DNA from: a virus
Length of the DNA: 64,000 nucleotides
Reading direction: 5' to 3' (one strand)
IMG/VR virus record: IMGVR_UViG_3300044815_000165
Location: 1-64,000 of that record
This document shows positions 38,147 through 55,861 of this stretch, piece by piece. Each line of letters starts with the position of its first letter. Within the stretch, counting starts at the first letter, position 1. The notes under the pieces were generated by a model. It saw nothing but the letters and a program-made list of their open reading frames with translations. It was not told the origin of the DNA and did no database searches. The position numbers and the translations under genes were made by a program.

Positions 38147-39613
38147 GTGACGGAACGTCGTGCCACCGTGACCATGCTCAGCAACGTGCGGTGCGTGGTC
38201 GACTTCAAGTACCCGGGGTTGGAAGCGAAGGCAGCGGAGAAGGAGCGCACGCGGATCGTCAACCTGCTCGACGACGCGCTCGCGATCGAGAACAAGGGTG
38301 CGCACTTCAACCCGACCGTCCAGAAGGGTCTCTGGGACGGCCGGCGTCACATGTTCTACAAGGACGGCTGCACCTTCGCGAAGGGTCTCATGCCTCGCCT
38401 GAAGAGCCTGTTGCGCGACGCGGGCTACAAGATCATGAAGACGAAGGACGAGCGCAAGAACGTCCCGACGGAGGTCGACCTCTCCATCGTGCAGCCCGAC
38501 ATGCTCGCGACGATCACGCTGCGCCCGGACCAGCTCCGCGTGATCAAGACGGCGCTGCGCAAGGGCTGCGGTCTTCTCCACGTCGCGACGGGCGGTGGCA
38601 AGAGCGCCGACGCGACCGCGATCATCAAGACCCTGATCGACAAGCGAAGCCTGTTCCTGGTCCACACGAAGCAGCTCCTCGGTCAGGCACGCAAGGAGAT
38701 CGCGAAGTTCCTCGGCACGATCGAGGAGTACATCGGCATCATCGGCGACGGCAACTTCAACCCGAAGCACATCACGGTCGCCACCGTGCAGAGCTTGTCG
38801 CGCGTCACGCGTGCCGATCAGAAGAAGATCATCGCGAAGTACCTCAAGACGATCGAGGTGCTCATCCTCGACGAGTGCCACCACTCGTCGGCGAAGTCGT
38901 TCTACAAGCTCCTGCAGCGGATCGACGCGCCGTGGCGCTACGGCTTGTCCGGCACGCCGTTCGGGCTCGCTGACGGCAAGGGGCTGATGGTGGAGGCCGC
39001 GTTCGGGCCGGTGTTCGAGCGCGTCACGAACGACGAACTGATCCAGCTCGGCATCAACGCCAAGCCGACGATCCGGATGATCGAGTCGAGCGTGCCGAAG
39101 CTCGACTCCGGGCTCGACTGGCAGAGCGTCTACAAGGAGGGGATCGTCCTCAACACCGCGCGGAACATCCTCGTCGCCAACCACGCCGCCGCGTTCGCGA
39201 AGAAGAAGTGGCCGACGCTCGTGATCGTCCGCGAGCTGTGGCACGGCGACAACCTGGCCGAGCTGCTCCGTGATCGCAGCGTCGCGCACGCGTTCGTTCA
39301 CGGACAGATGTCGACCACCGAGGTCGAGCGTCAGAAGGTGAGGCTGACCGAGGGCAAGATCCACGTGCTCATCGCGTCGCCGATCTTCGGCGAGGGTGTC
39401 GACATCCCGTCGGTGCGCGCGCTCATCGTGGCAGACGGCGGGCAGTCGACCGCGGCGGTGCTGCAGAAGGTTGGACGTGGTCTCCGATCGAAGAAGGGTG
39501 ACAACCGTCTCGACGTCATCGACTTCGCAGACACCACGCACAAGTGGTTAGCCAAGCACAGCCAGGAACGGATCGCACTCTACGAAGGCGAAGGTTTTGA
39601 AGTCTTGATGTGA
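38147..39613 (+). CDS. Superfamily 2 DEAH helicase (UvsW-like)
   Basis: ATGGGKS, LDECHH, GLSGTP, FGEGVDIP, QKVGRGLR. Confidence 0.92.
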   Translation: MTERRATVTMLSNVRCVVDFKYPGLEAKAAEKERTRIVNLLDDALAIENKGAHFNPTVQKGLWDGRRHMFYKDGCTFAKGLMPRLKSLLRDAGYKIMKTKDERKNVPTEVDLSIVQPDMLATITLRPDQLRVIKTALRKGCGLLHVATGGGKSADATAIIKTLIDKRSLFLVHTKQLLGQARKEIAKFLGTIEEYIGIIGDGNFNPKHITVATVQSLSRVTRADQKKIIAKYLKTIEVLILDECHHSSAKSFYKLLQRIDAPWRYGLSGTPFGLADGKGLMVEAAFGPVFERVTNDELIQLGINAKPTIRMIESSVPKLDSGLDWQSVYKEGIVLNTARNILVANHAAAFAKKKWPTLVIVRELWHGDNLAELLRDRSVAHAFVHGQMSTTEVERQKVRLTEGKIHVLIASPIFGEGVDIPSVRALIVADGGQSTAAVLQKVGRGLRSKKGDNRLDVIDFADTTHKWLAKHSQERIALYEGEGFEVLM

Positions 39614-39695
39614 TCTCTCGCGCGAACGAATCAGCAGAACCTGGCTTGCAAGCATCTTGACCTTCGTTGCTCTGCCGCGCTAAAAGGGACGTTCG

Positions 39696-40268
39696 ATGGT
39701 CACGCGCTCCAAGGTATCTGAGAAGCGCACCGTAGCCCAAGATCTCTGTGTCCTCTACCACGAGGCAGTTCGCAGCGTAGTTGCCCGCGAGACGAAGGCG
39801 AGCGCGACGCGCATCATGCCGACGCGCACTCTCGACGAGGTCGATGCTTCCGCGCGGAAGGCATTCCTCTCCGCCGCAACCATCTGCATCGAACTCGGTG
39901 CTGATGCGCGCGACTTCATCGCCGCGCAGTTCGCGTTGTGGCGCGAGGCATCGGCCTTCCACAAGAGGTTGCTGATGCCGTCGCCGCAGCACATGGCGAC
40001 GCTCGCCGCGCGCGTGCGCTACCTCCAGCATCAGGCACGCGAACAGATCCGCGTCTCGCGCGTGATCACACGCGACGACGACGGCGGAGACTCCACGAAG
40101 AAGTGGTTCGTCGAGGAGCGCCGATTGAAGGGTCTCGCACGCATGCAGCGGCGCGATCCACTCGAGGTGCTGACCGAGCAGCCGGAGCAGTTCTCGCGTG
40201 AGTTCCTGAAGTACAAGGATGTCTGGAACGTCGTGAAGGACGTCTGGGAAGAGCGAGAGCACTCGTGA
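39696..40268 (+). CDS. Hypothetical replication-module protein (possible helicase loader/initiator)
   Basis: Helical 190-aa ORF between SF2 helicase and DnaB; function inferred from position only. Confidence 0.55.
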   Translation: MVTRSKVSEKRTVAQDLCVLYHEAVRSVVARETKASATRIMPTRTLDEVDASARKAFLSAATICIELGADARDFIAAQFALWREASAFHKRLLMPSPQHMATLAARVRYLQHQAREQIRVSRVITRDDDGGDSTKKWFVEERRLKGLARMQRRDPLEVLTEQPEQFSREFLKYKDVWNVVKDVWEEREHS

Positions 40269-40834
40269 AGGAAATCAACAAGCGACACCTCGCGGCGTGG
40301 AACGTCGGGAAGAAGATCTTCGGGTACACCGGAGATCTGCCGAAGCCTCGCGGACTCCTGATCGGTGAAGCGCCGGGACCGAACACGAACGCGAAGCTCC
40401 CGCTGTTTCCGAGCCCTGCAGGCAGCGCCGCCGGCAGACTTCTCAGCTACGCGAACATCCACGCGATGGAGTGGATGGGGAAGCTCGTGCGCGTCAACCA
40501 GTGTGGAGACGAGCAGTGGTCGAGCCGTGCCGCGTGCGCCGGCCGCGTCGCGGCGACATCGTTCTTTCTCGATCCGAAGAACTTCCACGACGGCAAGCCG
40601 CTGCGTGTGCTCCTCCTCGGCGCGGATGTCGCGCGCGCATGGTCTTGCTACGGACCCTTCGGGAAGGTGACCTGGATCTTCTCCGACAAGGGAGACATGA
40701 CGGATGCCGTTCGTGTCGAGGTCGCGTGGATCCCGCACCCGTCGGGACGAAACCTGATCTACAACGAGCGCAAGAACCAGCTGCGTGCTGGTCGCGCCGT
40801 TCGGTGGGCGATCGGAGAGCGTGATCAACCGTGA
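40265..40834 (+). CDS. Uracil-DNA glycosylase-like superfamily protein
   Basis: LLIGEAPG, AGSAAGRL, VLLLGADVA, IPHPSGRN. Confidence 0.8.
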   Translation: MKEINKRHLAAWNVGKKIFGYTGDLPKPRGLLIGEAPGPNTNAKLPLFPSPAGSAAGRLLSYANIHAMEWMGKLVRVNQCGDEQWSSRAACAGRVAATSFFLDPKNFHDGKPLRVLLLGADVARAWSCYGPFGKVTWIFSDKGDMTDAVRVEVAWIPHPSGRNLIYNERKNQLRAGRAVRWAIGERDQP

Positions 40835-41340
40835 AGCAACGATCTCAGTTTGACGCGGTCGCCGAGGAGGTCACTGCGGCGCCTTCGTGGAAGGTCATCC
40901 AACGATTCTGGTCAAGGATCAACAAAAACGGACCGAAGCAACCGCACATGAAGACGTGTTGTTGGATTTGGACTGCTGGAACCGCAAACGGGTATGGCGT
41001 GATCTGGTGCAACGGTCAGACTCGACGTGCAACGCATCTCGCATTCTTCCTATCACATGGACGATGGCCGAATCCATGCGCACTGCATCGCTGCGATGTT
41101 CCAGCATGCGTGCGGCACATTTTTGAAGGAACTCGACAAGAAAATATGGTCGACATGATCCGCAAGGGTCGCGATCGCAAGGCTGTTGGAGAGCGCGCAT
41201 CACGCACCAAGTTGACAACGGCGCAGGTGAAGGCGATCCGCCAAGAACGTGGATCATCTCGAGCGGTCGGCAAGAAATTTGGGGTTTCCCACACCGCAGT
41301 GGTTTTGATCCGTAATGGATCAACATGGAGTCATGTGTGA
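40831..41340 (+). CDS. HNH homing endonuclease with C-terminal HTH
   Basis: RFWSRI..CWIWT..GYG..ALHRCDVPACV.HIFEGTRQENMVD..KLT..QV..IR..FGVS; AT-rich relative to flanks. Confidence 0.9.
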   Translation: MKQRSQFDAVAEEVTAAPSWKVIQRFWSRINKNGPKQPHMKTCCWIWTAGTANGYGVIWCNGQTRRATHLAFFLSHGRWPNPCALHRCDVPACVRHIFEGTRQENMVDMIRKGRDRKAVGERASRTKLTTAQVKAIRQERGSSRAVGKKFGVSHTAVVLIRNGSTWSHV

Positions 41341-42650
41341 TCGACGACGAAGTCAAGAAACCTTCGTGGTCGATCGACTACGGCAAGGACTTCGAGCGGC
41401 GGATGCTTCGCGTGCTCTACGCGGACCAGGAGTTCGCGACGACGACCGGCCTGCATCTCAGCCACGAGCACTTCAGCACGCCGGGGCTGCGCTGGCTCGC
41501 GCAGAAGATCGTTGGGTACGTCAAGGAGCACGGCGTCGGCATCTCGAAGGACGCGCTCAACATCGAGCTGGACCGTGACGTCAAGATCGGACGCCTCACC
41601 AAGGCGAACGTCGAGAACGCGCGAGCGCTGGTCGACTCGGTCGACGTCGAGGTCAAGGATCGCAGCTACGTCCGCGGCGAGCTGTTCAAGTTCATCAAGA
41701 ACCAGACGGTAGACCGCGCGATCCGCGCGAGCATCGATCACCTCGACGCGCAGGACTTCGAGTCCGTCGATCGCGAGCTGCAGAAGGTTCTTGACGTCCA
41801 GACGTCGGCGATGAACGGGCTCGGGCACTTCTTCGTCCGCGATCGCGGGATCCGACGCGAGCGCCGCAAGGAGTACAAGTTCGACGGGATCTCGACGGGG
41901 CTGTTCCTGGACGAGAAACTCAAGCCCAAGGGGATCCCGCCGAAGTCGCTGCTGACCGTGGTCGCACCGTCCGGCGTCGGCAAGAGTTCGACCCTGATGT
42001 ACATGGCGCGCAGCGCGGTCATGAACAGCGAGGCGAAGGTCCTCTACATCACCACCGAGCTGTCCGAGGAGGTGGTCTGCGATCGCCTCGACGCGTCGTT
42101 CACCGGCATCTCGATCGGCATGCTCGAGAAGGAGCGCAAGCTCGTCAGCGGCAAGGTCCGCAACCTCGGCAAGAAGTTCGGCGAGTTCCTGGTGGTGAAG
42201 GAGTTCCCACCGGGCATGCTCACGCCGAACGGGCTGCACGCGTACATCCGGCAGCTGGAACGTGTGCCGTTCTACCCGGACGTCATCTACGTCGACTCGG
42301 CCGACGACATGGTCCCGGACAACCCGGGCCGCGAGCGCGACTCGTACGAGGACTATGGCTCCGTGTGGCGTGGTCTGCGCAAGCTCAGCTACGACGTCCG
42401 CGCGCCCGTGGCGACGGCCTCGCAGACGGGACGCGGCGCGCTCAACAAGGAGCACGTGGACTGGGACCAGATCGCAGATTCGGCAAAGAAGGTGATGGTG
42501 AGCGACGTGGTACTCATCCTCCAGCAGACGCGCGAGGAACACCGTCAGAAAGTTGGTCGTTTCTACATCGCCAAGAACAGGTTCGGTTCAGCGAAGTCCG
42601 AGTGGAAGGTTAGACTAGACTGGGGTCTGGTCGACATCAGGAACATCTAG
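41337..42650 (+). CDS. dnaB: Replicative DnaB-like helicase
   Basis: APSGVGKS, YITTELSE, VIYVDSADDM, TASQTGR, IAKNRFG. Confidence 0.9.
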   Translation: MIDDEVKKPSWSIDYGKDFERRMLRVLYADQEFATTTGLHLSHEHFSTPGLRWLAQKIVGYVKEHGVGISKDALNIELDRDVKIGRLTKANVENARALVDSVDVEVKDRSYVRGELFKFIKNQTVDRAIRASIDHLDAQDFESVDRELQKVLDVQTSAMNGLGHFFVRDRGIRRERRKEYKFDGISTGLFLDEKLKPKGIPPKSLLTVVAPSGVGKSSTLMYMARSAVMNSEAKVLYITTELSEEVVCDRLDASFTGISIGMLEKERKLVSGKVRNLGKKFGEFLVVKEFPPGMLTPNGLHAYIRQLERVPFYPDVIYVDSADDMVPDNPGRERDSYEDYGSVWRGLRKLSYDVRAPVATASQTGRGALNKEHVDWDQIADSAKKVMVSDVVLILQQTREEHRQKVGRFYIAKNRFGSAKSEWKVRLDWGLVDIRNI

Positions 42651-42661
42651 AGGAGTTGAAG

Positions 42662-43309
42662 ATGAACAAGAAGAAGAAAACTACCAAGCTGCAGGTCACG
42701 CCTGCCGTTCAACAAGATCACGTTTCCATCTCGCTCCAAGAATTCCACGCCTTCCAGGCGCGCGAGGGCGCCTTCGCGCACGCGACGGAGGCCAACATCA
42801 AGCTCGAGATGGAACGGAAGATCCTCTCGGACACGGTGTCGAACCAGCTGCAGTTGCTCACCGTGAAGGACCTGAAGGTGCTGCACCTCGAGCGCGTCGC
42901 GCTCCTGCAGGATGCACTCCTCGAGCACTTCAAGGACACGACGAAGGTCATGGAGATGGCCGAGATGTCGGAGTTCTGGAAGCAGTGGCAGATCCAGACG
43001 AAGAAGGCGACCGACTCCGGCACGCCGGTCGAGGCGATCGCGAAGATCACGCCGAACATCTTCAAGACCTGGGAGATCTGGCTGCGCGACGCCGGCAAGG
43101 TCGACCGCTCCATGACCACGTCTGGTTCGCGTGCCGAACGTGATAACACCAAGCCGCAGACGCAGGGCGAGATGCAGGCGCACACCATCCGCCGTCTGCG
43201 CGAGGACAACTTCAATCTCGAGCGTCGCGCGGAGCAGCTCCACACCGAGCTGGAAGCGATCAAGGAACAGCTGCTCGCGAACGCCAAGTCGGACGACGCG
43301 AAGACCTGA
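42662..43309 (+). CDS. Hypothetical coiled-coil protein
   Basis: GAGGAG RBS; helical; stop overlaps primase start. Confidence 0.6.
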   Translation: MNKKKKTTKLQVTPAVQQDHVSISLQEFHAFQAREGAFAHATEANIKLEMERKILSDTVSNQLQLLTVKDLKVLHLERVALLQDALLEHFKDTTKVMEMAEMSEFWKQWQIQTKKATDSGTPVEAIAKITPNIFKTWEIWLRDAGKVDRSMTTSGSRAERDNTKPQTQGEMQAHTIRRLREDNFNLERRAEQLHTELEAIKEQLLANAKSDDAKT

Positions 43310-44322
43310 TGAACCTCCGCGCCATCGATCGAGCGTTCGACACCGAGCGCTACGTGCTCGACACGTTCCCCGATGCGCAGCGCAGCGGTGGCAACCTCGT
43401 GTGCATCTGCCCCGCGTGCGAGAAGCCGAAGCTCTGGGTGCTCGTCGTGGACCGCGACGACATCCGTGCACCAGCGTGGCAGTGCTTCGGCTGCGGCGAC
43501 GCGGGACGCACGGCGGTGTCCCTGGTGCGGCGTGTCGAGGACTGCGACATGTTCCGCGCGTTCGAGCTGATCGTGCAGTTCAAGAAGGGCAACGAGCCTC
43601 TCATCGACCTCCGCCGGCTCGTGGAAGAGCGCCTGCTCGGCGAACCCGAGGCATGGACGGCCGAGCCTGCTAAGGTCCCGCTCCCCGACGAGTTCATCGC
43701 CTGCCAGCGCGGGTACACGCGATCCGACCTGCCTCGCTACTTCACCGAGCGCGGCATCGGTCCGAAGAAGGCGTACCGCTACGGGCTCGGGTGGTGCGAC
43801 GACGGGTACTTCAAGAAGCGCATGGTGATCCCCGTGACCGCTGCCGGCGAAGTCCAGTTCTTCGTCGCGCGGTACATGAAGGCGAAGCCGCCGGAGGGTG
43901 TCAAGAAGACGCTCTATCCGAAGGGCGCGAAGCCCGGACGGTACCTGTACAACTACGAGCGCGCGAAGCACTGCGATACGATCCGCGTGGTCGAGGGCGT
44001 GCTCGACGCGATCCACGTCGGCAAGTCGGCGGTTGCCACCTTCGGCACCTCCCTCAGCCAGTACCAGCTCGAGCTGCTCATGCACACGGGTGCGCGCGAG
44101 ATCGTCATCATGTGGGACCGCGACGCGATCGGAAAGGCGAAGCAGCTCGCCGACCGCCTCGCTGACCTGTGGAGCATCCGCGTGGTCGAGCTGCCAGATG
44201 CCCGCGATCCAGACGAGCACACGATGGAGGACCTGATGGAGATGGAGCAACGCGCCACCGTGCTCGACACGTCGGGCGCGCGCCGCGCGTACGTGATCAG
44301 CCGACTCGAGAGGCACGCGTGA
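43309..44322 (+). CDS. dnaG: DNA primase (Zn finger + TOPRIM)
   Basis: CPAC..WQCFGC, YFTERGI, RMVIP, VVEGVLDAI, WDRD, DPDE. Confidence 0.92.
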   Translation: MNLRAIDRAFDTERYVLDTFPDAQRSGGNLVCICPACEKPKLWVLVVDRDDIRAPAWQCFGCGDAGRTAVSLVRRVEDCDMFRAFELIVQFKKGNEPLIDLRRLVEERLLGEPEAWTAEPAKVPLPDEFIACQRGYTRSDLPRYFTERGIGPKKAYRYGLGWCDDGYFKKRMVIPVTAAGEVQFFVARYMKAKPPEGVKKTLYPKGAKPGRYLYNYERAKHCDTIRVVEGVLDAIHVGKSAVATFGTSLSQYQLELLMHTGAREIVIMWDRDAIGKAKQLADRLADLWSIRVVELPDARDPDEHTMEDLMEMEQRATVLDTSGARRAYVISRLERHA

Positions 44323-46150: not shown

Positions 46151-48403
46151 ATGCGACCGCCGGTAATCTTCGCTGAGACCAACAAGCAAGCTCGGAAGCT
46201 CCTCGACGAGGTCTACCGAGAAGCCTACCTCGAAGGGAAGATTACGGCGGTCGACACCGAGTTCGTGCCCGTCTCGCACGAGCCAGTTCTCATGTCTCTG
46301 TCTTGGGGTCGCGGGATCCGCCGCGTCATCCGCGCCGAGCTGGTGAAGGAACACCTCGCGGAGTGGCTCACCGATCCCGAGACCAAGCTCGCGTGGCAGA
46401 ACTTCAAGGAGGACGCCGAGACCTGCGAGGCGCTCGGCATCCCGACTGCAGAGTTGGCGCGGAGCTTCTACATCGACGTCATGGTCGCCGGCGTGCTCCG
46501 CGACGAGACGCTGATGAAGCATGGCCTCAAGGCGCAGATGCTCCACTGGTTGAAGTGGTTCCGCCACGAGTACGGCCAGACGTTCGCCTACGTGCCACCG
46601 GGCCTGAAGAAGGCGATCGTCATGGACCCGCGCCAGGTGATGGATGACCTGCCGGCGGACGCGCTCATCGGCGCCGTCACGAAGTGGGGCAGCGCGAAGG
46701 GCGGGCACAAGACCGGCCCACGCACCCTCGAAGAGTGGATCCAGGCGATGCTGGACTACGCGGGCGACGACGCCGAGGGCACCCAGCTGCTCGCCGTCGA
46801 CCATCGGAAGTACCTCAAGAAGACCGACTACTGGGACAAGTACGTCTCGGTCGATCGGCCGTTCACGCTCACCCTCATGCAGTGCGAGAGCGCCGGCGCG
46901 TACATCGACCAGCCGATCCTCCGCAAGATCCTCCGCAAGCAGGAGATCCGCATCCTCCGCGCCGAGCACTGCTTCCGCGCCGCCTCCGGCAACCCGAAGC
47001 TGAACCTGCGGTCGGGACCGCAGATGCGGAAGCTGCTGCTCGAGGAGTGGGAGTGGCCACCGCATCCTGACAACGTGAGCGACAAGACCGGCGAGTCCTC
47101 CATGGACAAGGAGGTGCTCACCTGGTGGCTGCAGAAGCATCACCTCGAGATGGCCGAGGTGAAGATGGCCTTCAACAACGCGAGCACGATGAAGGGCACC
47201 TTCCTCCAGGGCCTGCTCGACGGCGTCAGCGAGGATGGGCGGCTGCGCTCCGACCTCAACCAGATCGGCGCGAAGACCAGCGGTCGGATCTCGTCGCGCA
47301 AGTTCGACGTGCTCGTGGAGGAGACGTACATCCTCAAGCGCACGGGACTCGTCAAGACGCGCATCAAGAAGAAGAAGGCCGGCGCGAACCTCCAGAACAT
47401 CCCCGCTCGCAAGGAGAAGGACCCGGACGGGATCCGCGGCGCGTTCCGCGCACCCAACGCCGGCGAGACCACCGCGCGCGGCACGATCGCGGAGGAGCCG
47501 TACAAGCTCCTCATCGCCGACTACGCGGGCTTCCACCTGATGCTCGTCATCCACTTCTGCTCGAAGCTCACCAAGCAGTCGGCGATGCTGGACGTGATGA
47601 AGAAGTACGGCACGCCGAGCGCCGTGCACGTGTACACGACGATCCAGATGTTCAAGAACACGAAGCCGCATTTCTGCGACGACTCGTCGTTCTCACCGTG
47701 CAAGAAGAACGGGAAGTGGAAGGAGTTCCACGGGCCGGGCAAGAGCTACTCGCTGAAGGAGTTCACGATGGACGACTGGAAGATGGTGAAGCCCATCTTC
47801 CCGGACCAGTACACGTACTCCAAGAACACGAACTTCGCGCTCATCTTCCTCGGGTCGCCGTGGACGCTCGCCTACAACACGGGCCGCGATCCCGGCATCG
47901 AGGAGCAGCTCGAGGAGTGCAAGCGCCACTACGACGATTGGTACGACCTGTACCCGGAGATCCCAGTCTACCAGAACCACATGATCGACCACGGCTACGA
48001 GCACGGCTGGGTGCCGACGCTCGGCGGTCGCCGCGGACACGTGCAGCGCATGCTCGAGGGTCGCGACCGCGCGGGCCGCTACATCGAAGACGAAGAAGCG
48101 CGCAAGAAGATGATCAAGCACGGCGAGCGCGTGTGCACGAACACGCCCGCGCAGGGCAGCGAGGCGGACATCGTCAAGATGGCGCTCAACCTCATCGCCA
48201 ACAGCCCGAAGCTGAAGAAGCTCCGCGTGGAGCCGCTGTTCCCGGTCCACGACGAGGTCGTCTGCGAGGGTCCCGAGAGCACGAGCGTGCCGGGTCTCGA
48301 GGAGCAGATCCGGTTGATGAAGATCCCGTACCGCGAGCTGATGGATTTCGAGTTGACGGTCGAAGGCGGCATCGGTTCCGACTGGCTTTCCGGTAAACCA
48401 TGA
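46151..48403 (+). CDS. polA: Family A DNA polymerase with 3'-5' exonuclease, atypical nucleotide pocket
   Basis: Exo DTE, NFKED, YAGDDA; TSGRISS..NLQNIP; motif A ADYAGFHL; motif B YTYSKNTNFALIFL; NTPAQGSEAD; motif C VHDE. Confidence 0.93.
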   Translation: MRPPVIFAETNKQARKLLDEVYREAYLEGKITAVDTEFVPVSHEPVLMSLSWGRGIRRVIRAELVKEHLAEWLTDPETKLAWQNFKEDAETCEALGIPTAELARSFYIDVMVAGVLRDETLMKHGLKAQMLHWLKWFRHEYGQTFAYVPPGLKKAIVMDPRQVMDDLPADALIGAVTKWGSAKGGHKTGPRTLEEWIQAMLDYAGDDAEGTQLLAVDHRKYLKKTDYWDKYVSVDRPFTLTLMQCESAGAYIDQPILRKILRKQEIRILRAEHCFRAASGNPKLNLRSGPQMRKLLLEEWEWPPHPDNVSDKTGESSMDKEVLTWWLQKHHLEMAEVKMAFNNASTMKGTFLQGLLDGVSEDGRLRSDLNQIGAKTSGRISSRKFDVLVEETYILKRTGLVKTRIKKKKAGANLQNIPARKEKDPDGIRGAFRAPNAGETTARGTIAEEPYKLLIADYAGFHLMLVIHFCSKLTKQSAMLDVMKKYGTPSAVHVYTTIQMFKNTKPHFCDDSSFSPCKKNGKWKEFHGPGKSYSLKEFTMDDWKMVKPIFPDQYTYSKNTNFALIFLGSPWTLAYNTGRDPGIEEQLEECKRHYDDWYDLYPEIPVYQNHMIDHGYEHGWVPTLGGRRGHVQRMLEGRDRAGRYIEDEEARKKMIKHGERVCTNTPAQGSEADIVKMALNLIANSPKLKKLRVEPLFPVHDEVVCEGPESTSVPGLEEQIRLMKIPYRELMDFELTVEGGIGSDWLSGKP

Positions 48404-50089: not shown

Positions 50090-50240
50090 GTTGAGATGGC
50101 GGAAGTAGGTAGACGCGCCAGCCTAGACGTGACCCGATAACGGGCGCGTCGAAGCGGGTGTCTGGTAGCCAACGGGTTGCGCTGCAGCCGCGCTCGTTGC
50201 GTTCGCATCGGACTTGCTGGTTCGAGTCCAGCTCTCAACA
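50090..50240 (+). ncRNA. tRNA-Leu-like RNA with large insertions in anticodon and variable arms
   Basis: Acceptor GTTGAGA/TCTCAAC + A discriminator; D arm TGGCGGAAGTAGGTAGACGCG; T arm GCTGG-TTCGAGT-CCAGC; 151 nt in total. Confidence 0.8.
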
Positions 50241-50249
50241 CGAGGACAC

Positions 50250-51326
50250 ATGCCGAAGAAGCAAGACAAAGACAGAGCCCACGAGATCCGCGTTATGCGA
50301 TCGACGCACAGCGAGATCACACGCATCAACGCGAAGGCAGACGTGCTTCTCAAGAACGTCATCGACCTCGGCGTTGTCCGTCCTCCTCCGAAGATCGACA
50401 AGGAGAAGGAGAAGAAGCTCACCAAGCTCTTCGCGAAGCTCAAGAAGAAGTACGACGATGTCGACGTGGTGACCACGATCGCCAACGGCTCGCGGAGCGC
50501 CACCAAGATCAGCACCATCCCGTCCGGGTGGCAGGAGATGGACGACCTCATCACCGGCGAGACCGACTCCGAGGCGCGCACCATCCCGGGCACGGGGCTC
50601 GGCTGGCCGCGCGGGCGGATCATCGAGGTCTACGGCGACGAGGGTGTCGGCAAGACGTCCCTCTCGCTGCAGATCATCGCGGCGTTCCAGAAGGCTGGCG
50701 AGGAAGTCGCGTTCGTCGACGCCGAGCACTCGCTCGACGTCCGCTACGCGAAGAAGCTCGGTGTCGACCTGACGCGGCTCAAGATCGCGCAACCGGACGA
50801 CGGCGGCGAGCGCGCCCTCTCCGTGGTTGCCGAGCTGTGCGAGAGCGGGCTGTTCGGCTGCATCGTGGTCGACTCGGTGGCCGCGCTCACGCCGGCGTCC
50901 GAGCTGGAGGCCGACTTCGAGGACACCATGCAGCCGGCGCGGCAGGCCGCGCTGATGTCGCGCGCGCTGCGCAAGCTCTCCGGCATCGTCTCGAAGAGCA
51001 ACACGCTGCTCGTCTTCACGAACCAGCAGCGCATCAAGATTGGTGTCCGGTTCGGCAACCCGAAGACGACGCCGGGCGGGCAGGCGCTGAAGTTCTACGC
51101 GTCGATCCGCATCGAGCTGGTGATGATCAAGACCGTCCGCAAGGGCGACCGTGTCGTCCTGCGCCGCACGCGCGTGCGCACCGTCAAGAACAAGGTGGCG
51201 CCGCCGTTCCGCGACGTGTTCGTCGACGTCGTCCCGAACCAGGGCTTCGCCGCGGTGTACTCGGATCCCGACTTCGGCGGGAAGAGCACCAAGAAGAAAG
51301 ACGAGGACGACGATGGCGGCGAGTAA
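50250..51326 (+). CDS. recA: RecA/UvsX recombinase
   Basis: GWPRGRIIEVYGDEGVGKT, FVDAEHSLD, IVVDSVAALTP, TTPGGQALKFYASIRI, KNKVAPPFR. Confidence 0.96.
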   Translation: MPKKQDKDRAHEIRVMRSTHSEITRINAKADVLLKNVIDLGVVRPPPKIDKEKEKKLTKLFAKLKKKYDDVDVVTTIANGSRSATKISTIPSGWQEMDDLITGETDSEARTIPGTGLGWPRGRIIEVYGDEGVGKTSLSLQIIAAFQKAGEEVAFVDAEHSLDVRYAKKLGVDLTRLKIAQPDDGGERALSVVAELCESGLFGCIVVDSVAALTPASELEADFEDTMQPARQAALMSRALRKLSGIVSKSNTLLVFTNQQRIKIGVRFGNPKTTPGGQALKFYASIRIELVMIKTVRKGDRVVLRRTRVRTVKNKVAPPFRDVFVDVVPNQGFAAVYSDPDFGGKSTKKKDEDDDGGE

Positions 51327-51612
51327 CAGCATCGCGGCGCTCTGCGGGAAGACGGCACACGTCATCGTGTCGCGCATCGCGTGCGAGGCGTGCCAGGAGA
51401 ACACGGCGCGCTACATCTCGATCGATGACGAGGCCATCGCATTCACGTGCGGCACGTGCCCGGTCAAGCACGGCTGGGAGTCGATCAGGATCTCCGACCT
51501 CGCGCCGCTGTTCGATGTCGTCATCAAGCTAGTTCGCGCCGAGCGCGTGACGGCACTCGGCAGCTCAGCTGCGATCGACGAGTTGCGATCGATCCTCGGG
51601 AGGAAGCCATGA
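51313..51612 (+). CDS. Hypothetical Zn-binding protein
   Basis: CEAC..CGTC. Confidence 0.55.
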   Translation: MAASNSIAALCGKTAHVIVSRIACEACQENTARYISIDDEAIAFTCGTCPVKHGWESIRISDLAPLFDVVIKLVRAERVTALGSSAAIDELRSILGRKP

Positions 51613-51863
51613 GCGCGCTGAAGATCGGCGACATCGTTCATCTCAAGTCGGGTAGCGGCATGATGACGGTCGAGAACATCCACCACCAGGAAACGCAGAT
51701 CGACGTCGTGTGGTGCTCGTCTTCGCGCGGACTCGAGCGCGCCACGTTGCCTATCGCGTGCATCAAAGAAGGTGCGATGCACGATCGCCTCAACAAGGAC
51801 GGCGTTCCTCCGCCACGACCACGTCGATCCAAACCGGATTACGGAGACAACGGCGAGAAGTGA
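51609..51863 (+). CDS. YodC/DUF2158-like protein
   Basis: LKIGDIVHLKSGSGMMTV..VVW. Confidence 0.75.
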   Translation: MSALKIGDIVHLKSGSGMMTVENIHHQETQIDVVWCSSSRGLERATLPIACIKEGAMHDRLNKDGVPPPRPRRSKPDYGDNGEK

Positions 51864-51876
51864 TAGGTTCCGCTCC

Positions 51877-52398
51877 ATGCTCAACCTGATCATCGCCTGG
51901 CTCGTCAGCAGCATCGTCTCAACACGCGCGCAGAGCCTCCCTGACGTCGAGCCTCCGCGGCTCGCGAGGTTCCTGACGGCGCTGCAGCACGAAGCGGTGG
52001 ACGACGTCCCGACGTCGCTCGTCGTGTACCTCGCGTGGGCGGAGTCGCGGTTCGATCCCGACGCGAAGCCCGGGTGCGGCGTGCTGCAGGTGTTCCCGCG
52101 CGACATCTACCAGCCACCGAGCCGGTGCAAGCTGTGGCGCTCCGACCAGCGCCTCGCGATCCGTGCCGGTGTGCGTGAGCTGCGGATGCTCATGAGCGAG
52201 CCGCGCGTGCACGGCGACCTGTGGATCGCCCTGATGTACCGCGCGTGCGGCAACGTCTACTTCGATGGTGCGTGTGATGCGGCTAAGAGTCGGTGGGTGG
52301 AGTTCGCCCTGCGCGGCGCATGGATGCTGAACCCGCTCAGCCTGGACGTCGCGACGGCGTTGCTCCGCGCCTCGCTCGAGAAGGTGAGGGAGTCGTGA
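51877..52398 (+). CDS. Lytic transglycosylase (SLT-like) with N-terminal hydrophobic segment
   Basis: LAWAESRFDPDA..GVLQV..IRAGVREL; TGa TAGGTT-7nt-ATG. Confidence 0.65.
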   Translation: MLNLIIAWLVSSIVSTRAQSLPDVEPPRLARFLTALQHEAVDDVPTSLVVYLAWAESRFDPDAKPGCGVLQVFPRDIYQPPSRCKLWRSDQRLAIRAGVRELRMLMSEPRVHGDLWIALMYRACGNVYFDGACDAAKSRWVEFALRGAWMLNPLSLDVATALLRASLEKVRES

Positions 52399-52670
52399 GG
52401 CACCTCGGCATCACCGACAGCGAGATCATCGAGGCGATCGGCTTCGAGCTTACGGGACGCGCCTCGCCCTCGTACAGCAGCCAGGTGGGTGTGCTCGAGG
52501 TCGTCTTCAAGGCCGCGCCGAACATGATCTACCGCTACGAGGACGTCACGGTCGACGACTTCGTTGCGCTCGTCACGTCCGATCGCATCGGTAAGCTGTT
52601 CATCGAGAAGTTCAAGAAGACGAAGCACCCGTTCGTGAAGAGCGAACGCCCGCTGCTCAAGAAGGCATGA
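52395..52670 (+). CDS. KTSC domain protein
   Basis: SEIIEAIGF..LEVVFK..IYRYEDV..F.AL..S..IGK.F. Confidence 0.85.
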   Translation: MRHLGITDSEIIEAIGFELTGRASPSYSSQVGVLEVVFKAAPNMIYRYEDVTVDDFVALVTSDRIGKLFIEKFKKTKHPFVKSERPLLKKA

Positions 52671-52918
52671 AGCCGACGCGCGAAGCCACCGTGAACGCGA
52701 ACCAGCTCGCCGAGCTGCGTTGGTTGGTTGGATCGGAGACGCCGAAGTCGGCGGCAGCTGCGAAAGCTCTCCACCGTCGTGGTCTCGTCTACGTCGTCGA
52801 CCAATGCGGAGCTGGCTGCTGTCGGCGTTATCGGCTGACAGAATTCGGTCGTCACTTCTATCGATTCACGAAGGAGATCTCCGCACCGTTGCTGTTGACA
52901 TTGTCAACGCTAACGTAG
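52667..52918 (+). CDS. Hypothetical winged-helix-like protein
   Basis: ALHRRGLV..YRLTEFG. Confidence 0.5.
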   Translation: MKPTREATVNANQLAELRWLVGSETPKSAAAAKALHRRGLVYVVDQCGAGCCRRYRLTEFGRHFYRFTKEISAPLLLTLSTLT

Positions 52919-52924
52919 TAGTAT
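52894..52924 (+). promoter_or_regulatory. Sigma70-type promoter with palindromic operator (copy 3)
   Basis: GTTGACATTGTCAAC; TTGACA-18-TAGTAT. Confidence 0.78.
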
Positions 52925-52934
52925 CCGCTTTGTC

Positions 52935-53147
52935 ATGAACGTCTACAAGGTCACGTACGATTTACGGACCTCCGAGGGATGGCTGGGCGGAGCTGGCGCG
53001 CTCGACAGCGTCAACGTCCTCTCGAGAGGAGACGTCTTGGATGCCTGTACCAAGATCCAAAAGCGTCTCGTCAAATCCAAGCGATTCGGCGCCGTGCTCG
53101 AGGTGATGATCATGTCCGTCGAGTGCCTCGCCCGAGGTGCCGTTTGA
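52935..53147 (+). CDS. Hypothetical protein
   Basis: First ORF after promoter; stop overlaps sbcD start. Confidence 0.55.
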   Translation: MNVYKVTYDLRTSEGWLGGAGALDSVNVLSRGDVLDACTKIQKRLVKSKRFGAVLEVMIMSVECLARGAV

Positions 53148-54271
53148 AAATCATCATCTTCTCCGACCTGCACGTTCACGCGTGGGGTGAGCACGCGCGA
53201 GACGTCGGCGGCGTGCCCTCTCGACTCGACCACTGCGTCAGCGTCTTGCGGCAGATCCGCGAGTACGCTACCAAGCACGAGATCACGAACGTCTTGTTCG
53301 GTGGGGATCTCTTCCACAAGCGCGGCGTGCTCTACACGCTCCCCTACAACCTCGTGGTCGCCGAGCTGGCGCGGTGGCGCGACGCTGGGCTGCAGCTCTA
53401 CGCGAACGTCGGCAACCACGACGCGGCCGATCGCCTCGCGAAGGTCCACGCGCTCTCCGCGCTCGAGAGCGCCGGCCTGCTGAAGACGGTCGGAGCCGAC
53501 GGGTGGACGAACTGGATCCTAGAAGACGCCGTGGACAATTCTGATCTCGACGTGCTCGTGACGGCGGTCGCGTACTGCTCGGAGGCAGCCGAGCTGCGCC
53601 GGCGGACGGACGTCGCCCTCTCCGAGATCGATAACCGCGACATCCTCAAGCGCTGCGGGTTCACCATCGGGCTGTTCCATCACGGGTTCCACGGCGCGCG
53701 CGTCGGCACCTCGCTGGAGTACGTGGTGAAGGAGGACGCCGACCCGGACGAGTACGCGAAGTCGTTCGACGTGATGTACAGCGGTCACTACCACGCGCAC
53801 CAGGAGGTCGGCGTGGCCGGCAACGCCTGGTACGTGGGATCGCCGATGGAGTTCGTGCGCGGCGAGACGTCGCCGAAGGGTTTCATCGTGCTCGACACGC
53901 GGGAGGCCGAGTTCGAGCGCATCACCCTCGACCTGCCGCGCTTCGTGAAGCTCACGCGCGCGGAGATCATCGACAAGGCGTTCGACATGGCGGCGCACGT
54001 GAAGGGGAACTTCGTCGACGTCGTGTTCGACGAGCTGCCGATGTCGTGGGAGGCGATCGACGGCGTGCTCACCAAGCTCGGCGCCGCCGGCGTCAAGGCG
54101 TGCCCGACGCGCGCGGAAGAGACGTCGAGCAGCACGCGGCTGAAGCTCGACCTCTCGCTCGGCGACAAGCACCTCCTGGAGCAGTACATGAGCCACGTCG
54201 AAGTCGATGAACCGAACCGCGCTGAACTGCTGCAGGTCGGGCTCTCGCTGATCGAGGAAGCCTCCAAGTGA
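53144..54271 (+). CDS. sbcD: SbcD/Mre11/gp47-like nuclease
   Basis: FSDLH, GGDLFH, VGNHD, FHH, SGHYH, YVGSP; TTG start overlapping previous stop. Confidence 0.92.
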   Translation: MKIIIFSDLHVHAWGEHARDVGGVPSRLDHCVSVLRQIREYATKHEITNVLFGGDLFHKRGVLYTLPYNLVVAELARWRDAGLQLYANVGNHDAADRLAKVHALSALESAGLLKTVGADGWTNWILEDAVDNSDLDVLVTAVAYCSEAAELRRRTDVALSEIDNRDILKRCGFTIGLFHHGFHGARVGTSLEYVVKEDADPDEYAKSFDVMYSGHYHAHQEVGVAGNAWYVGSPMEFVRGETSPKGFIVLDTREAEFERITLDLPRFVKLTRAEIIDKAFDMAAHVKGNFVDVVFDELPMSWEAIDGVLTKLGAAGVKACPTRAEETSSSTRLKLDLSLGDKHLLEQYMSHVEVDEPNRAELLQVGLSLIEEASK

Positions 54272-54480
54272 GCGGACGCGTGAAGCTGTCACCGCTCGGC
54301 AGGGCGATGCTGGCGATCGAGGCGATGGCATCGGTCCTGCCGCCACACCTCGTCGGGCTCAAGCGCGAACTCAACGAGGTGCTCGGTCTGCTGCAGGAGA
54401 CCGCGCTCGGCATCGACACAAGCGACAAGCCGGCGAAGAAGACGATCACCAAGAAGCGGAAGAAGAAAGGTACCAAGTAG
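54268..54480 (+). CDS. Hypothetical protein
   Basis: GTGA overlap; basic C-terminus. Confidence 0.55.
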   Translation: MSGRVKLSPLGRAMLAIEAMASVLPPHLVGLKRELNEVLGLLQETALGIDTSDKPAKKTITKKRKKKGTK

Positions 54481-55206
54481 ATGGCGTACAAGAGCAAGCG
54501 ACTCCTGCTGGAGGCTGTCACCAAGGAGATGGATGCGATCCGCAAGCTGCTCACGCAGCTCGGCACCGACGTGGTGAACAACGCGCAGTTCATGATGTCG
54601 CAGCGCGTGAGCGACGCGCAGGAGTCGCTGAATGACTTGCGCAAGCTGTTCGACGAGGTCACCGAGCGGCTCGAGAAGCCATCGATCAACGATCTCGAAA
54701 ACATGGAGCCGTCCGACTACGTCACCACCATGATGCCGCTGGTGACCCAGTACCACCGGCGGCTCATGATCGCGGACCGCCTCACCTCGTGCATCTGCAC
54801 CGATCTCGGCGCGGCGGGTGCGGTCATCATCTTGATCGGCGAGGGCTCCACCTCCGTCAAGACCGCGTACGACCCTGCACGCCCGGACGTCGCACTGGCG
54901 ATCGAGGCGATCCTAGCCGCGCTCGACAACAACACGAAGCAGGTCCTCACGGAGGGCGTCGCCGAGGCTGAGAAGCAGTTCGGGATCGCCGACTATCCGG
55001 TGAGCGAGATCCCGGAGGACTCCGACCTGCGCATTCGCTACGGCGACCCGATCCAGGAGCAGGACCTCGAGCGCAACCGGAAGGCTGCGTTCGTCATCAA
55101 CGCGAGCAACGTAGTCATCAAGGATCGCAACGGTCCGACGCCGCGTGGCGCTACCGAGGAGGAGATCGACAGCTGTCTCCTCGTCAAGGAACCCGGCGAC
55201 GAGTGA
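54481..55206 (+). CDS. Hypothetical protein
   Basis: Abuts previous gene; typical codon usage. Confidence 0.65.
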   Translation: MAYKSKRLLLEAVTKEMDAIRKLLTQLGTDVVNNAQFMMSQRVSDAQESLNDLRKLFDEVTERLEKPSINDLENMEPSDYVTTMMPLVTQYHRRLMIADRLTSCICTDLGAAGAVIILIGEGSTSVKTAYDPARPDVALAIEAILAALDNNTKQVLTEGVAEAEKQFGIADYPVSEIPEDSDLRIRYGDPIQEQDLERNRKAAFVINASNVVIKDRNGPTPRGATEEEIDSCLLVKEPGDE

Positions 55207-55652
55207 CGAAGAACCGTTTCGACACGCGCAACCGCGGCGCCGACGAGGTGTTCTACGACCTCCGCATGATGCGCGCGGACGCGAAGAGTTCGGTCGTGCT
55301 CGCCGTGTTCGGATCGAACAGCGTAGACCCACGTGGGCTCGCGCGCGCTCTCAACGCGCAGTGGTCGGCGGTCGTCACGCTCGTCGGGTTCCAGCCTCAG
55401 CGCGTGATGACGAGCTGCCGCGACGTCGGCACGGAGAAGGCCGTGAGGCTCGCCGCCAAGGACGTCACCGGCAAGCTCGCCGTGATCGTCCACCGCGCCG
55501 AGATGACCTACGGGATCAAGCAGGCCGACGAGATGTGCTGCAACCTGGTCTCGCGCGAGGCGGACGCGCTCCTCATGATCGGCGGTGGGAGCAAGTTCCT
55601 CCGCGATCGATTCGCCGGTTGGTACAAACCCATTCACGAGGTGGATTTCTAA
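55203..55652 (+). CDS. Hypothetical protein
   Basis: GTGA overlap; alpha/beta pattern. Confidence 0.6.
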   Translation: MTKNRFDTRNRGADEVFYDLRMMRADAKSSVVLAVFGSNSVDPRGLARALNAQWSAVVTLVGFQPQRVMTSCRDVGTEKAVRLAAKDVTGKLAVIVHRAEMTYGIKQADEMCCNLVSREADALLMIGGGSKFLRDRFAGWYKPIHEVDF

Positions 55653-55858: not shown

Positions 55859-55861
55859 ACC

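What the first reader, a model, noticed from the sequence alone, without database searches (positions are those of the whole stretch)
46151..48403. Family A DNA polymerase with a rebuilt dNTP-binding pocket (steric gate E to H, O-helix R to Y, YG to FL)
Seen: the catalytic aspartates (motif A D at 47519, motif C VHDE), TSGRISS/NLQNIP, the N/Q of NTPAQG and all three exonuclease motifs are intact, so the gene looks functional. Motif A reads DYAGFHLM instead of DYSQIELR, and motif B reads YTYSKNTNFALIFL instead of RxxAKxxNFGxxYG. Established (Klenow numbering): E710 is the steric gate excluding ribonucleotides, R754 and K758 bind the triphosphate, and Y766 borders the nascent base pair. Here Q708G, E710H, R712M, R754Y, Y766F and G767L all cluster around the incoming nucleotide. 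There is also an H-x-C..C..H insertion in the fingers and a basic insertion inside motif 2. Inference: the enzyme may be adapted to a non-canonical substrate (modified sugar, base or phosphate), implying a chemically unusual genome. No nucleotide-biosynthesis genes are visible in this window.
Basis: partly seen in the sequence, partly recalled or inferred. Interest (0 to 1): 0.85.

Follow-up and report, generated by a model that had tools for sequence, protein, structure and literature searches.

The report
Phage DNA polymerase with histidine sugar gate
The only DNA polymerase found in this uncultured soil phage has a histidine where family A enzymes normally carry the glutamate that keeps RNA building blocks out of DNA; the swap is fixed in a whole clade, but nothing found in these genomes suggests unusual DNA chemistry.

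Summary
ORF 46151-48403 (+) encodes an intact 750-aa exonuclease-plus-polymerase of family A. Motif A reads DYAGFHLM and motif B reads YTYSKNTNFALIFL.

The changes fall into layers:
- R754Y, Q708G, I709F and a 29-30-aa basic hairpin are shared by a wide metagenomic clade whose other members keep the Glu gate.
- E710H with Y766F and G767[L/K/M] defines one nested lineage (over 60 clusters at 90% identity). His pairs with Phe in 53 of 53 sequences. Glu pairs with Tyr in 131 and with Phe in 6.
- In Bst Pol I, the E710 and Y766 equivalents hydrogen-bond in the closed complex, so the swap is a coupled replacement.

A non-canonical substrate is not supported. Five records, including two complete Glu-gate sister genomes, lack PurZ, ThyA-like, DpdA, RNR, MazG, HD and dUTPase genes. 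The only nucleotide-metabolism gene found is ThyX, and both gate types have it. Histidine is the proven steric gate of family D polymerases.

My best reading (0.62) is an ordinary dNTP-using replicase with an alternative gate design. I could not inspect model coordinates and ran no biochemistry.

Unchecked notes from this scan report His gates in other phage polymerase lineages on other DNA. I found no paper describing this one.

The parts
46151..48403 (+). Family A DNA polymerase gene, 750 aa, with a 3'-5' exonuclease domain followed by the polymerase domain. It is the only family A or B polymerase gene found in the genome.
   Evidence: ORF. Pfam PF00476 at 1.4e-36. AF2 model pLDDT 88.7, pTM 0.86. 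Foldseek top hits are Bst and Klenow Pol I, E about 1e-28, TM(target) up to 0.85-0.86. One PolA ORF per genome and no PolB.
46253..46771 (+). Proofreading exonuclease motifs: Exo I D35/E37, Exo II N84/D88, Exo III Y203/D207. All are intact.
   Evidence: Alignment with canonical Pol I. These residues are invariant or nearly invariant in alignment A1.
47276..47296 (+). TGR motif, here TSGRISS (residues 376-382).
47297..47386 (+). A 30-aa basic beta-hairpin insertion (residues 383-412) between GRISS and NLQNIP. It is shared by the whole divergent clade.
   Evidence: The spacer is 29-30 aa in all clade members tested, against 3-8 aa in other PolAs. The model shows two strands, E385-394 and E401-410.
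47387..47404 (+). NLQNIP motif (residues 413-418).
47519..47542 (+). Motif A, DYAGFHLM (residues 457-464). D457 is the catalytic Asp. His462 (CAC, 47534-47536) occupies the steric-gate position, Klenow E710.
   Evidence: His is fixed in every inner-clade sequence, and the codon is CAC in 13 of 13 loci while flanking codons vary synonymously.
47627..47629 (+). His493, the equivalent of Klenow H734 (a triphosphate contact). It is conserved.
   Evidence: invariant in alignment A1.
47669..47731 (+). H-x-C...C...H element (residues 507-527) inside a ~50-aa fingers insertion. It is a possible small zinc-binding knuckle.
   Evidence: The regex matches 57 of 57 inner-clade and 5 of 11 outer-clade proteins. 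Model confidence is low here, pLDDT 55-58. Metal binding was not tested.
47810..47851 (+). Motif B / O-helix, YTYSKNTNFALIFL (residues 554-567). Y554 replaces R754, K558 is K758, F562 is F762, F566 replaces Y766 and L567 replaces G767.
   Evidence: The model has a helix at 551-564.
48140..48157 (+). Motif 6, NTPAQG (residues 664-669), intact.
48245..48256 (+). Motif C, VHDE (residues 699-702), including the second catalytic Asp.
38147..44322 (+). Upstream replication genes: a UvsW/ResIII-type helicase (38147-39613), a DnaB-type helicase (41325-42650) and a Toprim primase (43309-44322).
   Evidence: Pfam hits. The helicases have homologues at syntenic positions in the sister genomes G005 and G006; the primase ORF itself was not among the gene calls compared.
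50214..58435 (+). Downstream recombination genes: RecA (50214-51326), an Mre11-like phosphoesterase (52979-54271) and a Rad50/SbcC-like ATPase (56588-58435).
   Evidence: Pfam hits. Syntenic in G005 and G006.

Best explanation
This is the replicative, proofreading family A DNA polymerase of an uncultured tailed soil phage with a genome of about 118 kb. I think it polymerises ordinary dNTPs.

Catalysis uses the usual D457 and D701 pair. K558, H493 and a Tyr at the R754 position hold the triphosphate. F562 sits over the sugar.

The unusual part is the sugar-selection pair. Other family A enzymes have a Glu steric gate that hydrogen-bonds the O-helix Tyr when the fingers close. This lineage has a His gate packed against a Phe, followed by Leu/Lys/Met instead of Gly. 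I infer that the imidazole ring blocks a 2'-OH sterically, as the proven His gate of family D polymerases does. Ribonucleotide exclusion would then be kept, and the Glu-Tyr latch would be replaced by a non-polar or pi contact.

Shown: gene integrity, residue equivalences, clade-wide fixation, the E/Y against H/F coupling, and the absence of recognisable nucleotide-modification genes.

Inferred: side-chain geometry, retained dNTP selectivity, and any effect on fidelity or closing dynamics.
For: Integrity:
- All exonuclease and polymerase catalytic motifs are intact.
- The fold is a confident full-length Klenow/Bst type.
- It is the only PolA gene, with no PolB, and sits in a helicase-primase-PolA-RecA-Mre11/Rad50 module.

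Selection and coupling:
- The His gate is fixed across all inner-clade clusters at 65-80% identity.
- The codon is CAC in 13 of 13 loci while neighbouring Ser, Gly and Leu codons vary synonymously.
- His pairs with Phe766 in 53 of 53 sequences. Glu pairs with Tyr in 131 and Phe in 6.
- In Bst Pol I crystal structures the Y766 and E710 equivalents are hydrogen-bonded in the closed and ajar ternary complexes (PMC4256020).
- The mosaic P0060 carries a basal polymerase half reading Glu/Tyr/Leu, so the pairing holds there too.
- Of 14 fixed His-clade versus Glu-sister differences, 5 lie in residues 462-494. Motif B adds N760T, G763A, Y766F and G767L.

Precedent:
- PolD H931 is a proven His steric gate. 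Its ~2,300-fold rNTP discrimination is lost in H931A (PMC7708050).
- Engineered gate-opening mutations in Taq replace the Glu with Gly, not with a bulky residue (PMC9738464).

Ordinary nucleotide supply:
- ThyX is present in a His-gate relative and in both complete Glu-gate sister genomes.
- No PurZ, ThyA-like, TGT, RNR, MazG, dUTPase or HD genes were found in the five records searched for each family.
- The His-gate and Glu-gate genomes are syntenic.
Against: - No biochemistry exists, and no cultured relative is known. The best hit among 50,697 phage records is 25% identical.
- I could not read model coordinates, so the orientation of His462 towards C2' and its contact with Phe566 are assumed from alignment only.
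- Glu710 is treated as a conserved position in all 19 PolA clusters of Czernecki et al. 2023 (PMC10201439). From my own knowledge of the Klenow mutagenesis literature, not checked here, substitutions at this residue are costly. A lineage-wide replacement may therefore reflect a changed requirement and not a neutral alternative.
- Many genes in these phages have no detectable function, so an unknown nucleotide pathway cannot be excluded.
- This contig is only 76% complete. The missing part was inferred from a relative.
Confidence: 0.62

Rival explanations
1. The remodelled pocket is adapted to a non-canonical incoming nucleotide (modified sugar, base or phosphate), so His-gate phages have chemically unusual DNA.
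For: - Several pocket residues that are normally conserved change together and stay fixed.
- Y766F is otherwise described as a shared peculiarity of the two DpoZ clusters of 2-aminoadenine phages (PMC10201439).
- Many neighbouring genes have no assigned function.
Against: - The Z-genome kit is absent: no PurZ, no HD-type DatZ and no MazG-type MazZ.
- There is no ThyA-like hydroxymethylase, DpdA/TGT or dUTPase.
- ThyX, which makes ordinary dTMP, is the only nucleotide gene found, and Glu-gate sisters share it.
- No gene with a recognisable nucleotide function is specific to the His clade.
- The MT-A70 methylase is variable within the His clade, and from general knowledge it acts after replication.
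- The same paper judges Y766F unlikely to affect A versus Z discrimination.
- The gate position reads the sugar 2' position, and from my own knowledge no natural phage DNA with a modified sugar is known.
Confidence: 0.1
2. The gate is relaxed or retuned. The His/Phe pair lowers discrimination against ribonucleotides, or changes discrimination against 3'-deoxy or arabino analogues. That could let replication continue when dNTPs are scarce, or make the replicase resistant to chain-terminating nucleotide analogues produced by soil hosts or their defence systems.
For: - The substitution sits exactly at the residue that reads the sugar, and its hydrogen-bond partner changes with it.
- In PolD the His gate is also proposed to hydrogen-bond the 3'-OH and affects ddNTP use (PMC7708050).
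- The source is a soil metagenome.
- The fixed differences cluster around the pocket.
Against: - His is as bulky as Glu, whereas known gate-opening changes go to Gly or Ala.
- F762, the ddNTP-discriminating residue, is unchanged.
- I looked for no defence or counter-defence link and found none. The host is unknown.
- I did not search for RNase H2-type ribonucleotide-repair genes.
- This explanation is entirely inferential.
Confidence: 0.18
3. The gene is a decaying or non-replicative polymerase, and the pocket changes reflect loss of constraint.
For: - The only other non-Glu-gate relative found, P0107 (Gln with F-L), is a singleton. It has a damaged TGR motif and has lost the motif 6 Asn.
- R754, important in Klenow, is missing.
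Against: - There are over 60 distinct clusters with every catalytic and proofreading residue intact.
- Synonymous divergence surrounds fixed pocket residues.
- Inteins have inserted at conserved motifs such as TGR in many members.
- It is the only polymerase gene found, and it lies inside the replication module.
Confidence: 0.03

Closest known systems
Bacterial DNA polymerase I large fragments (Klenow, Bst LF, KlenTaq)
   Same: Same two-domain exonuclease-plus-polymerase fold over the full length (Foldseek E about 1e-28, TM up to 0.85-0.86). Same catalytic Asp pair. Shares K758, F762, H734, motif 6 N/Q, TGR, NLQNIP and the Exo I-III motifs.
   Different: About 18-24% identity and no 5' nuclease domain. 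It has a His instead of the Glu steric gate, F-L instead of Y-G, and Tyr instead of R754. It adds a 30-aa hairpin after TGR and a ~50-aa fingers insertion carrying H-x-C...C...H.
Glu-gate sister polymerases of the same phage group (P0064 in G005 and P0070 in G006; uncharacterised metagenomic proteins)
   Same: 42-53% identity, the same hairpin insertion, the same Q708G, I709F and R754Y changes, and the same syntenic ~118 kb genomes with ThyX.
   Different: They keep Glu710 and [Y/F]766-Gly767. Their motif B reads KNNNFNLL[Y/F]G against KNTNFALIFL here.
Family D DNA polymerase (PolD DP2) His931 steric gate
   Same: It is a functional analogy only: a histidine next to the incoming sugar excludes 2'-OH nucleotides, as shown by mutagenesis and kinetics (PMC7708050).
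   Different: The fold is unrelated (two-barrel). There is no homology, and the His sits on a loop motif (PHT), not in motif A.
DpoZ polymerases of 2-aminoadenine phages (phiVC8-like and Wayne-like clusters)
   Same: They are phage PolAs that carry Phe at the Y766 position (PMC10201439).
   Different: The paper reports only the Y766F substitution as peculiar to DpoZ and treats the steric-gate position as conserved. DpoZ also travels with PurZ, DatZ and MazZ. None of those genes was found here.
Phage N4 gp39 (UDG-PolA, cluster #17)
   Same: It is the polymerase of a cultured phage and has a non-Gly residue after Tyr766 (Y-Q), so position 767 is not universally Gly.
   Different: N4 gp39 keeps Glu710, Arg754 and Tyr766. 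The paper describes a UDG-like domain in cluster #17 (PMC10201439). No UDG family was detected by Pfam in the protein here.

Membership tests
Family A DNA polymerase (Pfam PF00476, Klenow-fold polymerase) | Significant match to the family profile and a Klenow-type fold | tested here: met
   PF00476 at 1.4e-36, 126.7 bits against a cut-off of 34.3. Foldseek to Bst/Klenow at E about 1e-28.
Family A DNA polymerase (Pfam PF00476, Klenow-fold polymerase) | Catalytic Asp of motif A and the HDE of motif C | tested here: met
   D457 and VHDE at 699-702 align with the canonical residues.
Family A DNA polymerase (Pfam PF00476, Klenow-fold polymerase) | Motif B Lys (K758) and the aromatic residue at position B3 (F762) | tested here: met
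   K558 and F562 are invariant in the clade.
Family A DNA polymerase (Pfam PF00476, Klenow-fold polymerase) | Glu steric gate (position A2, Klenow E710) | tested here: not met
   His462 occupies this position and is fixed in the lineage. Among the 118 representatives with clean motifs the gate is Glu in 114.
Family A DNA polymerase (Pfam PF00476, Klenow-fold polymerase) | Motif B Arg (R754) and Tyr-Gly (Y766-G767) | tested here: not met
   Tyr554, Phe566 and Leu567 occupy these positions. Tyr at 754 also occurs in about 30 of 118 representatives sampled. A non-Gly 767 occurs in N4 gp39.
Proofreading PolA (3'-5' exonuclease, PF01612 type) | Exo I DxE, Exo II NxxxD and Exo III YxxxD motifs | tested here: met
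   D35/E37, N84/D88 and Y203/D207 align with Pol I. The Pfam hit itself is below the cut-off, 19.4 bits against 23.6.
DpoZ (2-aminoadenine-specific PolA) | Co-occurrence with PurZ, DatZ (HD) and MazZ (MazG) | tested here: not met
   No PF00709, PF01966 or PF03819 match over the cut-off in the five records searched for each family. The MazG and HD searches included two complete Glu-gate genomes. The positive controls matched.
DpoZ (2-aminoadenine-specific PolA) | Phe at the Y766 position | tested here: met
   F566. The source paper judges this residue unlikely to affect A versus Z choice.
divPolA1 / divPolA2 (Yutin et al. 2024) | A second, accessory PolA with an inactivated or missing exonuclease and a truncated or absent thumb, alongside a regular polymerase | tested here: not met
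   The exonuclease motifs are intact and the fold is full length. It is the only PolA, with no PolB. The definition comes from PMC11348598.
N4-like UDG-PolA (cluster #17) | A UDG-like domain between the exonuclease and polymerase domains | tested here: not met
   Pfam finds only the PF00476 and PF01612 regions. The N4 gp39 motifs differ.

The most novel reading that the evidence does not exclude
The His/Phe/Leu pocket changes which sugar the replicase accepts or rejects. The enzyme might tolerate or prefer a 2'- or 3'-altered nucleotide, or be hardened against chain-terminating nucleoside analogues made by soil hosts. In that case the lineage would replicate under, or with, a nucleotide chemistry that ordinary family A polymerases cannot handle.
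Probability: 0.12. Interest if true: 0.9.

Novelty: new variant of a known kind. Interest (0 to 1): 0.5.

Why it matters
The Glu steric gate is treated as a conserved feature of family A polymerases, and the 2023 reclassification (PMC10201439) labels it among the highly conserved positions in all 19 subfamilies.

This is a natural, well-populated lineage in which the gate Glu and its Tyr partner were replaced together by His and Phe. Close Glu-gate sisters are available, and so is one mosaic sequence with a Glu/Tyr/Leu intermediate state.

That set is a ready-made natural experiment on how sugar selection is built:
- swap the pair between sister enzymes;
- measure rNTP, ddNTP and analogue discrimination.

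It could also supply a new scaffold for engineering polymerases that handle modified sugars. It does not currently provide evidence for a new DNA chemistry.

Tried and rejected
The ~118-119 kb contigs of His-gate members P0003, P0018, P0038 and P0055, and of the Glu/Tyr/Leu mosaic P0060, could not be fetched. The missing 29 kb of this genome was inferred from relative G001 instead.
- **GTDB genome scan** with the clade profile found no relative, so there is no host or prophage clue.
- **Cultured phages with Tyr754.** I searched with the remote Tyr754 PolAs P0144 and P0172. They have no cultured relative above about 31% identity. The nearest cultured-phage PolA to the query, Bacillus phage BCD7, is canonical. 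The alignment of Clostridium phage CS32 was unusable.
- **Z-genome hypothesis**, suggested by Y766F, was rejected: no PurZ, HD or MazG.
- **MT-A70 as a His-clade marker** was rejected. It is present in G000, G002 and G003 but absent from His-gate G004.
- **A second origin of a non-Glu gate.** P0107 (Gln gate with F-L) lies in a different subclade. It is a singleton with a damaged TGR motif and motif 6, so I treat it as suggestive only.
- **divPolA1/2 identity** was rejected.
- **Residue-level geometry** of the AF2 model could not be examined, because coordinates are not exposed to the script box.
- **Sequencing-run search** gave one full holder, a soil metagenome that is probably the source, and one sediment run with a 0.07 share that I did not lay. 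This is not evidence of habitat breadth.
Full report
**1. Observation**

The window holds an open reading frame at 46151-48403 on the + strand, 750 aa, with the strong GC3 bias of a real gene in this 64% GC sequence. It matches Pfam DNA_pol_A at 1.4e-36 and Taq, Bst and Klenow structures by sequence.

- DYAGFHLM at residues 457-464, with the D457 codon at 47519 and the His462 codon CAC at 47534-47536.
- YTYSKNTNFALIFL at residues 554-567.

Residue equivalence with Klenow rests on the phmmer alignment to Taq and a MAFFT alignment with 24 ordinary bacterial Pol I proteins.

Everything needed for catalysis and proofreading is intact: Exo I, II and III, TGR, NLQNIP, the H734 equivalent, K758, F762, motif 6 N/Q and motif C HDE.

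An AlphaFold2 model built on a 24-sequence alignment is confident (pLDDT 88.7, pTM 0.86). It matches Bst and Klenow Pol I over its full length (E about 1e-28).

The two insertions are also real:
- A 30-aa two-stranded basic hairpin between GRISS and NLQNIP.
- An H-x-C...C...H element at residues 507-527, inside a poorly modelled fingers insertion.

**2. What kind of genome**

The window is part of a single 89,133-bp viral contig that CheckV rates 76% complete. It encodes tail and baseplate genes, a gpA-type terminase, and a replication-recombination module. That module holds a UvsW-like helicase, DnaB, primase, PolA, RecA, Mre11/Rad50, a PDDEXK nuclease and RuvB. The sequence comes from a soil metagenome.

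A related contig, G001, extends about 29.6 kb beyond the start of this one, which gives a genome of about 118 kb. That size matches several relatives' contigs of 115-119 kb and two complete sister genomes. G005 is 117,941 bp. G006 is 117,394 bp and has terminal repeats.

The structural and replication cores of these genomes are syntenic. Each has one PolA gene and no PolB, so this enzyme is very probably the replicase. PolC/DnaE was not tested.

**3. The substitutions are layered**

A search of 5.8 billion proteins found 74 relatives and then a sharp drop to ordinary Pol I at about 24% identity. An exhaustive profile search of 1.84 billion representatives extended the series.

Aligning all of them to the clade profile and building a tree gave the following picture.
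- **(a) Features of the broad clade.** Q708G, I709F (DYSGF-), R754Y and the 29-30-aa hairpin characterise a broad, well-supported clade. Most of its members keep Glu710 and Tyr-Gly.
- **(b) R754Y elsewhere.** Tyr at 754 also appears in several more remote PolA representatives.
- **(c) Position 767 is loose.** Within the clade it reads G, L, M, K, R or N. It is Gln in the polymerase of cultured phage N4.
- **(d) The His gate.** It occurs in one nested lineage only (SH-aLRT 100), always with Phe766 and Leu, Lys or Met at 767.

Over 192 sequences with cleanly aligned motifs:

| Gate residue | Residue at 766 | Sequences |
|---|---|---|
| His | Phe | 53 |
| Glu | Tyr | 131 |
| Glu | Phe | 6 |
| Gln | Phe | 1 |
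| Ile (P0197; alignment doubtful) | Tyr | 1 |

Among 118 representatives at 50% identity the gate is Glu in 114, His in 2 and Gln in 1, with one doubtful alignment.

**4. Selection and history**

In all 13 His-clade loci examined the gate codon is CAC, while the adjacent Ser, Gly and Leu codons vary synonymously. The residue has therefore been held through long divergence.

The sisters use GAG. GAG to CAC needs two changes, through CAG (Gln) or GAC (Asp).

P0060 is a mosaic. Its N-terminal half is sister to His-gate P0099 (support 100). Its polymerase half moves to the base of the His clade and reads Glu/Tyr/Leu. This is consistent with G767L arising first and then the coupled change E to H plus Y to F. 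The basal trichotomy is unresolved, so a reversal cannot be excluded.

A Gln-gate sequence with F-L (P0107) sits in a different subclade. It is a singleton with a damaged TGR motif and motif 6, so I do not lean on it.

Of 14 positions fixed differently in the His clade and its Glu sisters, five lie in residues 462-494. Residue 462 is the only one that is completely fixed on both sides. Motif B adds four more lineage-specific changes.

**5. Why the pair changes together**

In Bst Pol I crystal structures the Tyr714 hydroxyl hydrogen-bonds Glu658 in the closed (1LV5) and ajar (3HP6) ternary complexes (PMC4256020). These residues are the Klenow Y766 and E710 equivalents. Removing the carboxylate leaves the Tyr hydroxyl without its partner, and Phe is the natural replacement. 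This explains the coupling but does not say what the change does to substrate choice.

**6. Does a His gate imply an odd substrate?**

Three lines of evidence say no.
- **Precedent.** In family D polymerases His931 is the experimentally proven steric gate. The wild type discriminates about 2,300-fold against rATP, H931A not at all, and small side chains open the gate. A His is also the proposed gate in family C (PMC7708050). Engineered opening of the Taq gate uses Gly (PMC9738464).
- **Gene content.** Six-frame family searches covered this genome and four relatives. Positive controls matched for every family searched except MT-A70. The searches found no PurZ, ThyA-type enzyme, TGT/DpdA, ribonucleotide reductase, MazG, dUTPase or HD phosphohydrolase. 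The only nucleotide-metabolism gene found is ThyX. It is present in a His-gate relative and in both complete Glu-gate genomes.
- **Nothing specific to the His clade.** No His-clade-specific gene has a recognisable nucleotide function. The MT-A70 methyltransferase is a variable accessory gene. It occurs in 3 of the 4 His-gate records that cover the region and in neither Glu-gate genome.

Absence is therefore not proof.

**7. Comparison with what is known**

The protein is a family A polymerase by profile, fold and catalytic residues. It fails three of the family's usual conserved positions: the Glu gate, R754 and the Tyr-Gly pair.
- It is not a DpoZ. It shares Phe766 with DpoZ, but the PurZ, DatZ and MazZ genes are missing.
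- It is not divPolA1 or divPolA2. Those are accessory polymerases lacking an active exonuclease (PMC11348598).
- It is not an N4-like UDG-PolA. No UDG domain was found, and N4 gp39 keeps Glu, Arg and Tyr.

Czernecki et al. 2023 label the gate (position A2) among the highly conserved positions of all 19 PolA clusters. They call Y766F a substitution unique to the DpoZ clusters. I found no paper describing a His-gate PolA lineage.

Unchecked notes from this scan report His gates in other uncultured phage PolA and PolB lineages on other DNA. I did not verify them. If they hold, the His gate is a recurrent natural alternative, which fits the ordinary-replicase reading and lowers the novelty of this single case.

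**8. Verdict**

| Reading | Probability |
|---|---|
| Working, proofreading replicase that uses ordinary dNTPs, with an alternative coupled His/Phe design of the sugar-selection pair | 0.62 |
| Retuned sugar selectivity | 0.18 |
| Non-canonical genome chemistry | 0.10 |
| Decaying or non-replicative gene | 0.03 |

The remainder is unassigned. This is a new variant of a known kind. It is of moderate interest as a natural experiment on the steric gate, and it is directly testable with sister enzymes.

Noticed in passing
Relatives P0018, P0031, P0038, P0039, P0044-P0061, P0072 and P0099 (homologues of window 46151-48403): Many homologues of this polymerase are 1,000-1,400 aa long because they carry inteins with LAGLIDADG or HNH endonuclease domains (Pfam PF14528, PF14890, PF13392). 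P0060 has an insert at the TGR motif. In several others motif B cannot be found intact, which suggests an insertion there. P0099 is the longest at 1,400 aa. The copy in this window has no intein.
   Followed up: partly
P0060 (a homologue on a 119,160-bp contig that could not be fetched): This polymerase gene is a mosaic. Its N-terminal half groups with P0099 inside the His clade. Its C-terminal half is basal and reads Glu/Tyr/Leu. The junction coincides with an intein at the TGR motif, which could reflect co-conversion of flanking sequence during intein homing.
   Followed up: partly
L017/G005 and L018/G006 compared with the window's genome: One syntenic ~118 kb phage genome plan spans a very wide base composition: 42.9% GC in G006, 62.8% in G005, 64.5% here and 68% in G001. 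This implies hosts of very different kinds.
   Followed up: no
L015:7169-8077 (+) in relative G001; also G005:70264-70860 and G006:9040-9627: A flavin-dependent thymidylate synthase (ThyX, E about 1e-42 to 1e-46) is conserved across the phage group. It lies in the part of the genome that is missing from this window's contig.
   Followed up: yes
window 59484-60179 (+): An MT-A70-type methyltransferase (probably adenine-N6). It is present in His-gate records G000, G002 and G003, and absent from His-gate G004 and from both complete Glu-gate genomes.
   Followed up: yes
window 45637-46119 (+): A 160-aa protein immediately upstream of the polymerase. It consists of a short ordered N-terminus followed by long runs of Glu and Lys. 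It has no homologue in the two sister genomes and no real Pfam match.
   Followed up: no
window 42718-44316 (-) versus 43309-44322 (+): A 532-aa ORF on the minus strand overlaps the Toprim primase gene on the plus strand. The primase has the Pfam support, and the long antisense ORF is probably a high-GC artefact.
   Followed up: partly
L015:10897-12942 (+) in relative G001: A 682-aa protein with a ryanodine-receptor (RyR) repeat domain (PF02026, 3.8e-10), in the early or unknown-function region of a His-gate relative.
   Followed up: no
G005:C1:30875-31057 (+): A short 154-aa frame with a sub-threshold match to the middle of the PolA profile (3.4e-9, 31.6 bits), about 5 kb upstream of the real polymerase gene. 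It may be a gene remnant.
   Followed up: no
P0107 (a 3,056-bp JGI contig): A singleton relative with Gln at the steric gate and F-L at positions 766-767. Its TGR motif reads TMR and the motif 6 Asn is Met. It is either a decaying copy or a further specialised enzyme.
   Followed up: partly
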